A DNA stretch of 33,382 nt from a virus (lineage: Duplodnaviria; Heunggongvirae; Uroviricota; Caudoviricetes): IMG/VR virus record IMGVR_UViG_2874945390_000012; one strand, given 5' to 3'. Of the stretch, positions 1,146-1,173 are shown in pieces. Position 1 is the first letter of the stretch, and every line of letters starts with the position of its first letter. The notes below the pieces were generated by a model. It was not told where the DNA came from, did no database searches, and saw only the letters and a program-made list of their open reading frames with translations. Both the position numbers and the translations under genes were made by a program.

Positions 1146-1173
1146 GACGATCGATATGATGCTATCGATCGTC
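1146..1173. promoter_or_regulatory. Perfect palindrome GACGATCGATA-N6-TATCGATCGTC with two GATC sites, upstream of com-mom
   Basis: 11-bp inverted-repeat arms read directly from the sequence; GATC at 1149-1152 and 1167-1170; located ~75-100 bp upstream of the com start in the com-mom promoter region. Confidence 0.55.

What the first reader, a model, noticed from the sequence alone, without database searches (positions are those of the whole stretch)
1146..1173. GATC-bearing perfect palindrome upstream of com-mom: candidate Dam-dependent switch
GACGATCGATA-tgatgc-TATCGATCGTC is a perfect 11-bp inverted repeat carrying two GATC sites, ~75-100 bp upstream of com. In Mu, mom transcription is controlled by the Dam methylation state of GATC sites that overlap an OxyR repressor site upstream of Pmom. 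This palindrome is a good candidate for the equivalent switch but differs in sequence and symmetry from what I recall of Mu, so the binding factor may differ.
Basis: partly seen in the sequence, partly recalled or inferred. Interest (0 to 1): 0.6.

Follow-up and report, generated by a model that had tools for sequence, protein, structure and literature searches.

The report
Two-GATC variant of Mu mom switch
The palindrome is real and is the counterpart, in a different Mu-like prophage lineage, of the well-known Dam-methylation/OxyR control region in front of phage Mu's toxic mom gene; it has lost one of the three methylation sites, so it is an ordinary variation on known biology.

Summary
GACGATCGATA-N6-TATCGATCGTC lies at 1146-1173, 75-102 bp upstream of the com ATG (1071, minus strand), with GATC at 1149 and 1167.

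The idea that it differs from Mu in sequence and symmetry, and so may bind another factor, is not supported. Mu has the same core, CGATCGA-N10-TCGATCG, with the same 18-bp GATC spacing, and the two regions align without gaps. Mu, other com-mom loci and the E. coli agn43 switch all fit one 46/47-bp frame. An ATAG-N7-CGATC half-site comes first, the dyad axis lies midway between GATC1 and GATC2, and a second half-site is framed by GATC2 and GATC3, 13 bp apart. The window fits this frame but reads CATC where GATC3 should be.

The arms are nearly invariant in 17 distinct relatives (1 of 22 columns varies, against 39 of 78 in the other non-coding DNA). In IMG/VR the palindrome occurs only upstream of com-mom. 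The promoter-proximal part co-varies with the phage's own Mor/C activator, which is 32% identical to Mu C.

Best reading: an orthologous OxyR/Dam switch with two methylation sites. OxyR binding and Dam dependence are inferred, not shown. The OxyR consensus match is weak (8/10 + 5/10), about as weak as Mu's proven site. Interest is modest.

The parts
1146..1173 (.). Perfect 11-6-11 palindrome GACGATCGATA-N6-TATCGATCGTC. It is the central part of the predicted switch, and its centre (1159.5) is also the centre of the predicted 46-bp OxyR site.
   Evidence: Arms nearly invariant in 17 distinct relatives (1 of 22 columns varies). In IMG/VR the core pattern occurs only on the 18 window-type com-mom contigs.
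1167..1170 (.). Distal GATC (Dam site 1), equivalent to Mu GATC1. It lies inside half-site 1 as ATAG-N7-CGATC.
1149..1152 (.). Proximal GATC (Dam site 2), equivalent to Mu GATC2, 18 bp from site 1 as in Mu. It forms the 5' edge of half-site 2.
   Evidence: PMC3378877 for the 18-bp PvuI fragment in Mu
1168..1182 (-). Predicted OxyR half-site 1, ATAGTTTATGACGAT (8/10 to ATAGnTnnnAnCTAT).
   Evidence: one of only two positions scoring 8/10 or better among 33,368 in the window. Same register as Mu ATAGAAAACGACGAT (7/10) and agn43 ATAGAATAAAACGAT (8/10). Homology among relatives with three different upstream genes starts just upstream of this ATAG.
1137..1151 (-). Predicted OxyR half-site 2, ATCGTCGGTTTGCAT (5/10, a weak match), at offset 31 from half-site 1 as in Mu.
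   Evidence: GTTTGCATC is conserved in relatives
1136..1139 (-). CATC in the slot where Mu, agn43 and other com-mom loci have the third GATC (13 bp after GATC2). The methylation site is lost here.
   Evidence: (spacings [18,13] in other types, [18] only in the window type)
1104..1129 (-). Conserved block GATTAAATACCCCCAGCCCTCCGGGC, the candidate binding site of the phage's Mor/C-type late activator (inferred).
   Evidence: Conservation. It occupies the position of the Mu C site. The regulatory type co-varies with the activator type, 8/8 and 7/7 contigs.
1085..1100 (-). Candidate -10 elements of the com-mom promoter: TATTAC (1090-1085, conserved) or TATATC (1100-1095, not conserved). Unresolved.
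   Evidence: No sigma-70 consensus promoter is found, as expected for an activator-dependent promoter.
886..1071 (-). com (61 aa), translational activator of mom
   Evidence: RefSeq annotation of relatives
240..935 (-). mom (231 aa), DNA adenine modification enzyme
   Evidence: (Pfam Mom, 2e-75)
25439..25888 (-). Mor/C-family transcription activator, the probable activator of the com-mom promoter in this phage
   Evidence: Pfam Mor, 1e-30; 32% identity to Mu C over the full length; it sits just before the endolysin gene, as C does in Mu

Best explanation
The palindrome is the core of a Dam-methylation-sensitive repressor site for host OxyR. It is orthologous to 'region I' upstream of phage Mu's mom promoter and sits in a different Mu-like (transposable) prophage lineage of E. 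coli.

Proposed mechanism (inferred): an OxyR tetramer binds the roughly 46-bp site 1182-1137, made of half-sites ATAGTTTATGACGAT and ATCGTCGGTTTGCAT, when the two GATCs at 1167 and 1149 are unmethylated. From there, upstream of the activator site, it keeps the com-mom promoter off. Dam methylation of the two GATCs, which lie in the two inner recognition elements and are symmetric about the dyad axis, prevents OxyR binding. The phage's own Mor/C-type activator can then switch on com-mom late in lytic growth.

Compared with Mu, the third methylation site is lost (CATC at 1139-1136), the inner dyad is extended to a perfect 11 bp, and the promoter/activator-site part has been replaced to suit a different activator.

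Shown here: the anatomy, the homology to Mu, conservation, exclusive association with com-mom, and co-variation of the promoter-proximal part with the activator. Inferred: OxyR binding, Dam dependence, and the promoter position.
For: (1) The same core as Mu: CGATCGA-N10-TCGATCG, GATC spacing 18 bp, ATAG 12 bp upstream of GATC1. The alignment of window, Mu, L002, L044 and L003 through the switch is ungapped, with CGATCGA, GATCG and the outer AT invariant.
(2) A shared frame with two experimentally established Dam/OxyR switches. Mu (GATC-18-GATC-13-GATC) and agn43 (GATC-19-GATC-13-GATC) both have ATAG-N7-CGATC as the first half-site and a dyad axis midway between GATC1 and GATC2. A half-site framed by two GATCs 13 bp apart is also the documented design in gtr of P22 (PMC2909390).
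(3) Half-site 1 scores 8/10, one of 2 such positions in 33,368. The 46-bp layout scores 13/20, one of 2 positions among about 66,700.
(4) In L003 the slot of the lost third GATC holds the canonical OxyR CTAT, giving a 9/10 half-site. In L014 the only arm substitution raises half-site 1 to 9/10.
(5) Purifying selection: 1 of 22 arm columns and 8 of 46 site columns vary, against 39 of 78 in the other non-coding DNA (Fisher P = 5e-5 and 3e-4). The module keeps its left boundary just upstream of ATAG next to three different upstream genes.
(6) The palindrome core occurs in 2.9 million viral contigs only on the 18 window-type com-mom contigs.
(7) The host is E. coli (100% match to strain VL40). That E. 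coli has both Dam and OxyR is established knowledge.
(8) Mu mom is documented to be controlled by Dam and OxyR (PMC3378877; PMC2909390).
Against: No binding or expression data exist for this variant. Half-site 2 matches the OxyR consensus poorly (5/10). The full-site consensus score (12-13 of 20) is barely above the window background, and the consensus scan discriminates poorly, since Mu's proven site scores only 12-14. The half-site offset of 31 is neither the canonical 22 nor exactly 32. The promoter is not located: no -10 or +1 is established, the candidate -10 TATTAC would leave a leader of only about 7 nt, and the alternative TATATC is not conserved. The distance to the promoter is therefore only approximate, and relative to the putative activator box the dyad centre lies 6 bp further upstream than in Mu. 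Perfect extension of the dyad to 11 bp is not required by the OxyR model and is unexplained.
Confidence: 0.72

Rival explanations
1. The palindrome is the operator of a different symmetric DNA-binding protein, either a factor specific to this phage lineage or another host protein. OxyR is not involved, and the GATCs may or may not matter.
For: The dyad is perfect over 11 bp, more than OxyR needs and more than in Mu (8 of 11). Half-site 2 is only 5/10. The third GATC is lost. This lineage has its own regulators, including an activator only 32% identical to Mu C.
Against: The 7-bp core, the spacing and the flanking ATAG are shared with Mu and with lineages carrying other regulators, which suggests a common host factor. 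The arm sequence occurs nowhere else in the 33-kb phage window and in no other context in IMG/VR, so there is no sign of a phage regulon. The only arm substitution seen breaks the palindrome but improves the OxyR half-site (L014).
Confidence: 0.1
2. The palindrome acts mainly at the RNA level. It would form a stem-loop at the 3' end of the upstream late tail-fibre transcript, working as a weak terminator, a transcript stabiliser, or an insulator against read-through into the toxic com-mom operon.
For: It lies 23 nt after the stop of the DUF4376 tail-fibre assembly gene (stop at 1196). The 28-nt RNA hairpin is stable (-15.9 kcal/mol). It is followed by GGUUUG.
Against: It has no U-tract and is not called as a terminator. 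It stays with com-mom when the upstream gene differs (L008/L030, L038/L052). The homologous Mu element straddles the gin stop codon and has only a 7-bp stem with a 10-nt loop. No compensatory stem changes are seen, and the stem is sequence-invariant rather than structure-invariant. No Rfam family matches.
Confidence: 0.1
3. It is a non-functional relic or a chance palindrome. The GATC-rich self-complementary words (CGATCG, ATCGAT) make inverted repeats easy to form, and conservation only reflects recent common ancestry.
For: The relatives are closely related (Mom 95-99% identical). A close GATC pair somewhere in the window is not improbable (P = 0.57).
Against: The arms are significantly more conserved than the adjacent non-coding DNA in the same sequences. 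The same layout is kept in loci whose Mom is only 81-88% identical and whose flanks are unalignable. A perfect 11-bp palindrome is expected about 0.17 times per window.
Confidence: 0.04

Closest known systems
Phage Mu mom operon upstream 'region I': Dam-methylation-sensitive OxyR repressor site (Bolker & Kahmann 1989; Hattman & Sun 1997; summarised in PMC3378877 and PMC2909390)
   Same: Position upstream of com-mom and of the late-activator site. The CGATCGA-N10-TCGATCG dyad, the 18-bp GATC1-GATC2 spacing, and ATAG 12 bp upstream of GATC1. Ungapped alignment. com-mom coding DNA is 87% identical.
   Different: Two GATC sites rather than three (CATC in the third slot). The dyad is perfect over 11 bp rather than 7. 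The dyad centre lies 6 bp further from the putative activator box. The promoter/activator-site DNA is unrelated, and the activator is only 32% identical to Mu C. The upstream neighbour is a tail-fibre assembly gene rather than gin. The phage backbone is not Mu at the DNA level.
E. coli agn43 (flu) Dam/OxyR phase-variation switch
   Same: The same frame: ATAG-N7-CGATC as first half-site, dyad axis midway between the first two GATCs, and the shared words TATCGATCGT and CGATCGATA.
   Different: agn43 has three GATCs (spacings 19 and 13) and much better half-sites (8+8 of 20 at offset 32). By the literature, its site lies at or downstream of the promoter and produces heritable ON/OFF phase variation. 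Whether mom expression phase-varies is unknown (PMC2909390).
Salmonella/P22 gtr and opvAB Dam/OxyR switches
   Same: OxyR half-sites carrying GATCs; in gtr, pairs of GATCs 13 bp apart sit within one half-site; methylation blocks OxyR binding (PMC2909390; PMC4856963).
   Different: Those systems use three or four half-sites with alternative occupancy to give bistability, and OxyR acts there as both activator and repressor. Here only one two-half-site unit is recognisable.

Membership tests
Mu-type mom Dam/OxyR transcriptional switch | Lies upstream of a com-mom operon, distal to the late-activator site | tested here: met
   com and mom identified. The palindrome is 75-102 bp upstream of the com ATG. 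A conserved block between it and com occupies the place of the Mu C site.
Mu-type mom Dam/OxyR transcriptional switch | Sequence homology to Mu region I (GATC1-GATC2 dyad, 18-bp spacing, flanking ATAG) | tested here: met
Mu-type mom Dam/OxyR transcriptional switch | Three clustered GATC sites (spacings 18 and 13) | tested here: not met
   Only two GATCs are present. The third slot reads CATC in the window and in all 17 distinct relatives.
Mu-type mom Dam/OxyR transcriptional switch | OxyR binds the unmethylated site and not the methylated one | not testable with these tools
   Needs EMSA or footprinting
Mu-type mom Dam/OxyR transcriptional switch | mom transcription is Dam-dependent, and the dependence is relieved in oxyR mutants | not testable with these tools
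   Needs reporter assays in dam and oxyR hosts
Mu-type mom Dam/OxyR transcriptional switch | The promoter depends on a Mor/C-family late activator encoded by the phage | tested here: inconclusive
   A Mor/C-family gene is present, and the regulatory type co-varies with the activator type. The binding site, the promoter and the dependence itself are not established.
OxyR binding site (two ATAGnTnnnAnCTAT half-sites) | Two half-sites with a good match to the 10-position consensus (published functional half-sites score 7-10 of 10) | tested here: inconclusive
   Half-site 1 scores 8/10 and half-site 2 scores 5/10. The total of 13/20 compares with 14 for Mu's proven site and 16 for agn43.
OxyR binding site (two ATAGnTnnnAnCTAT half-sites) | Half-site centres 22 bp (oxidised) or 32 bp (reduced) apart | tested here: inconclusive
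   The offset is 31 bp, identical to Mu; agn43 has 32.
Rho-independent terminator | G+C-rich stem-loop followed directly by a U-tract | tested here: not met
   The stem is present (-15.9 kcal/mol), but the tail is GGUUUGCA and the site is not called by the terminator scan.

The most novel reading that the evidence does not exclude
The two-site, perfectly symmetric version may not be just a degenerate copy of Mu's switch but a switch with different logic. Both methylation sites sit in the two inner recognition elements, and the promoter-proximal outer element can no longer be methylated (CATC). OxyR, or another symmetric factor, might therefore stay bound on partly methylated or hemimethylated DNA. 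That would silence the toxic mom more tightly, or give heritable ON/OFF states in lysogens, in a lineage that uses a different late activator.
Probability: 0.12. Interest if true: 0.5.

Novelty: new member of a known kind. Interest (0 to 1): 0.3.

Why it matters
If the inference holds, the Dam/OxyR lock on mom is a portable module that different transposable phages have kept while swapping the promoter and activator part. Natural variants also show which features are dispensable (the third GATC) and which are not (the GATC1-GATC2 dyad and the ATAG). This gives a ready-made natural mutant series for a classic epigenetic switch, and a sequence signature (ATAG-N7-CGATC-N14-GATCG) for finding further Dam/OxyR switches. 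It opens no new field, because the kind of regulation has been known since the 1980s.

Tried and rejected
(1) Full-site OxyR consensus scoring as a decisive test. It was rejected as decisive because Mu's proven site scores no better than the window background.
(2) Close GATC spacing as evidence. It is not significant on its own (P = 0.57).
(3) Finding the activator site by searching the window for GATTAAATACCCCCAG-like sequences. There was no second copy. A GCC(C)TCCGG(G)C dyad is shared with the region upstream of the endolysin gene, but spacing to the candidate -10 elements differs and relatives have different gene content after the Mor/C gene, so this is left unresolved.
(4) Sigma-70 promoter scan of 900-1400: nothing found.
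(5) Rfam scan of 800-1400 at E <= 1: nothing found.
(6) The primary papers on the Mu OxyR footprint and on agn43 GATC mutagenesis (PMC147061, PMC401183, PMC135096) are not held. Footprint coordinates and the claim that methylating two of agn43's three GATCs is enough could not be checked and are not used as evidence.
(7) Literature searches for a description of this variant, or for unmethylated GATCs at prophage mom promoters, found nothing in the held library.
(8) The genome-contig scan with Mom gave only 3 loci, so the diversity came mostly from IMG/VR.
(9) A gix-type or other recombination site was considered. It was rejected because there is no invertase gene here and no resemblance.

Full report
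OBSERVATION. The window carries, on its minus strand, mom (240-935) and com (886-1071). Both are identified by Pfam (Mom 2e-75; Zn_ribbon_Com) and by 87% DNA identity to phage Mu over window 188-1061. Upstream of com in the direction of transcription lies a perfect inverted repeat, GACGATCGATA-N6-TATCGATCGTC, at 1146-1173. Its GATC sites are at 1149-1152 and 1167-1170.

Perfect palindromes of at least 11 bp are expected about 0.17 times in a window of this composition. GATC is strongly depleted in the window (40 against 115 expected), and two of the three CGATCG sites are here. One caveat: a pair of GATCs 18 bp apart or closer somewhere among 40 sites is not improbable (P = 0.57), so the spacing alone is weak evidence.

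WHAT KIND OF ELEMENT CARRIES IT. The window is a Mu-type transposable prophage read in reverse. It has MuB and GemA, one Mor/C-family activator just before the endolysin gene, and a long ORF running to the right edge where the transposase is expected. Apart from com-mom, its DNA is not Mu-like. The activator is only 32% identical to Mu C. There is no gin next to mom; the upstream neighbour is a DUF4376 tail-fibre assembly gene ending at 1196. Megablast similarity to Mu stops at 1061, inside com.

COMPARISON WITH MU. Read in the com direction, Mu has ...CATATAGAAAACGACGATCGAATCAATTAAATCGATCGGTAATACAGATCGATTATGCCCC.... The window has ...TGTATAGTTTATGACGATCGATAGCATCATATCGATCGTCGGTTTGCATCAAG.... 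Both contain TATAG-N6-GACGATCGA-N10-TCGATCG. GATC1 and GATC2 are 18 bp apart in both, which agrees with the 18-bp PvuI fragment reported for Pmom (PMC3378877). A MAFFT alignment of the window, Mu and three more divergent com-mom loci runs ungapped through this stretch, with CGATCGA, GATCG and the outer AT invariant. The window's 11-bp arms are an extension of a 7-bp dyad that Mu also has.

A COMMON FRAME. I collected 47 com-mom loci using the Mom protein and mapped GATCs upstream of com. The Mu type, a diverged Mu type (L024), L002, L044 and L045 all have GATC spacings of [18, 13], and L043 has [31, 13]. The window type (17 distinct sequences) and L003 have [18] only.

The agn43 switch of E. 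coli K-12, the other classic Dam/OxyR switch, has spacings [19, 13]. Scoring the standard 10-position OxyR half-site ATAGnTnnnAnCTAT (as used in PMC2909390 and PMC4856963) shows the same first half-site form in all three. They are ATAG-N7-CGATC in agn43 (ATAGAATAAAACGAT, 8/10), in Mu (ATAGAAAACGACGAT, 7/10) and in the window (ATAGTTTATGACGAT, 8/10).

A second half-site follows 31-32 bp downstream. It begins inside GATC2 and, in Mu and agn43, ends inside GATC3: agn43 ATCGTTTATATCGAT (8/10) and Mu ATCGGTAATACAGAT (7/10). A half-site framed by two GATCs 13 bp apart is also the documented arrangement in gtr of P22. The window has ATCGTCGGTTTGCAT (5/10) here, and the third-GATC slot reads CATC (1139-1136).

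In every case the dyad axis of the 46/47-bp frame is the midpoint between GATC1 and GATC2, and the outermost bases are AT...AT. The centre of the window's palindrome (1159.5) is exactly the centre of the predicted site 1182-1137.

HOW STRONG IS THE OxyR ASSIGNMENT. Half-site 1 is one of only two positions scoring 8/10 or better in the whole window. The two-half-site layout at offset 31 scores 13/20, one of two such positions among about 66,700 tested. However, Mu's experimentally established site scores only 12-14 on the same scale, so the consensus scan discriminates poorly. I treat it as consistent with OxyR, not decisive.

Two evolutionary observations favour OxyR over recognition of a palindrome as such. 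In L003 (a Scandinavium MAG, Mom 81% identical), which also lacks the third GATC, that slot holds the canonical CTAT, giving a 9/10 half-site. In L014 the only arm substitution seen breaks the palindrome but raises half-site 1 to 9/10.

CONSERVATION AND CONTEXT. Across the 17 distinct window-type sequences, 1 of 22 arm columns and 8 of 46 site columns vary. In the remaining non-coding DNA between the upstream stop and the com ATG, 39 of 78 columns vary (Fisher P = 5e-5 and 3e-4). The loop varies.

Every locus with the window-type com start had the palindrome, so the regex used to extract the set hid no exceptions. Three different genes lie upstream in different relatives, and homology always starts about 20 bp before the palindrome, at TTTGTATAG. 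A deletion remnant in E. coli bR_120_Kylling keeps the palindrome although com and most of mom are gone.

In 2.9 million IMG/VR contigs the core pattern CGATCGATA-N6-TATCGATCG occurs only on the 18 window-type com-mom contigs. The arm words occur nowhere else in the window. In complete E. coli genomes the window type is found in 23 of 5,426 and the Mu type in 46.

PROMOTER SIDE. All 8 window-type loci on contigs long enough to carry both genes encode the window-type Mor/C protein (74-98% identical). All 7 such Mu-type loci encode Mu C. There are no mixed cases. This fits a picture in which the promoter-proximal part is tuned to the resident activator while the upstream GATC module is shared. 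Here that part is a conserved block, GATTAAATACCCCCAGCCCTCCGGGC (1129-1104), followed by a variable spacer.

The promoter itself is not resolved. No sigma-70 consensus promoter is found, as expected for an activator-dependent promoter. TATTAC (1090-1085) is conserved and lies at the Mu-like distance from the GATTA box, but it would leave a leader of only about 7 nt. TATATC (1100-1095) gives a normal leader but is not conserved. Either choice puts the palindrome centre about 70-82 bp upstream of the start, in the same zone as Mu (about -76 by the same reckoning). These positions are my inference, not measurements.

MECHANISM. The best-supported reading is as follows. Unmethylated GATC1 and GATC2 allow an OxyR tetramer to occupy 1182-1137 and repress the com-mom promoter from just upstream of the activator site. 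Dam methylation of the two sites, which lie symmetrically in the two inner recognition elements, excludes OxyR. The phage activator can then fire the promoter late in infection. That Mu mom is governed by Dam and OxyR in this way is documented (PMC3378877; PMC2909390). For this variant nothing has been measured.

RIVALS. (a) A different symmetric protein. This is possible because the dyad is more perfect than OxyR requires and half-site 2 is weak. It is disfavoured because the core is shared across lineages with different regulators, and there are no other copies of the site.
(b) An RNA hairpin at the end of the tail-fibre transcript. The hairpin is stable (-15.9 kcal/mol). However, there is no U-tract, the element travels with com-mom rather than with the upstream gene, Mu's homologue is not terminator-like, and no Rfam family matches. 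A secondary insulating role cannot be excluded.
(c) A relic or chance. This is contradicted by the conservation contrast and by the retention of the layout in distant loci.

NOVELTY. This is a new member, with a modest architectural difference, of a well-known kind of switch. I found no description of the two-GATC variant in the held literature, but the key primary papers are not held, so earlier mention cannot be excluded. Interest is modest. The main value is a natural variant series showing that the GATC1-GATC2 dyad and the flanking ATAG are the conserved heart of mom switches, and that the third GATC is dispensable.

Noticed in passing
window 1-33382: GATC is strongly under-represented across the whole prophage window: 40 sites against 114.6 +/- 10.9 expected from dinucleotide shuffles. 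This suggests selection against Dam/MboI-type sites in this phage lineage.
   Followed up: no
window 1071-1083 and 1114-1126 (minus strand): An inverted repeat, TAAATACCCCCAG ... CTGGGGGAAATTA, pairs an anti-SD-like C-run with the com Shine-Dalgarno sequence (I1; fold -19.5 kcal/mol). By eye, similar C-run/G-run complementarity occurs upstream of com in L043, L045 and L002. It could block com translation on read-through transcripts from the tail operon, while transcripts started at the com-mom promoter would lack the upstream arm.
   Followed up: partly
window 1-200: The window starts in a host ORF (1-162). I recognised its first ~38 residues from memory as resembling the periplasmic disulfide isomerase DsbG; this was not searched. 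By the same recollection, the ORF leaves the host-like sequence after about nt 114, which would mark the prophage right end. TTCAAGATA occurs three times (130-138, 154-162, 189-197), and these could be transposase end-binding repeats. Similarity to Mu starts only at 188.
   Followed up: no
window 1103-1113 and 25395-25403 (minus strand): A small G+C-rich dyad, GCC(C)TCCGG(G)C, occurs both upstream of com and in the gap between the Mor/C gene and the endolysin gene. It is a candidate recognition element of this phage's late activator, but its spacing to the candidate -10 elements differs by 2-5 bp.
   Followed up: partly
window 3016-3045, 11507-11535, 15885-15920: Three other perfect palindromes with arms of at least 11 bp. 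Two lie in intergenic gaps of the structural gene region (11480-11565 and 15867-15937), and one lies inside ORF 2788-3171. About 0.17 are expected per window.
   Followed up: no
window 1196-4806: Unlike Mu, this phage has no gin invertase or invertible G segment between the tail-fibre genes and com-mom. The DUF4376 tail-fibre assembly gene directly abuts the mom switch.
   Followed up: no
L051 (E. coli bR_120_Kylling), L053 (plasmid pPS1T_138kb), L052 (E. coli STEC388): Decayed or relocated copies of the module. L051 is a remnant that keeps the palindrome fused to the 3' end of mom. L053 is a truncated copy next to IS elements on a 138-kb plasmid. L052 is an intact copy with the prophage end inside fliH.
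   Followed up: partly
L003 (Scandinavium MAG), L043, L045, L002: Further regulatory types upstream of com. L003 has two GATCs plus a 9/10 OxyR half-site ending in the canonical CTAT. L043 has spacings [31,13]. L002, L043 and L045 carry a CACCATAAYC box like the Mu Plys C site rather than the Pmom-type site.
   Followed up: partly
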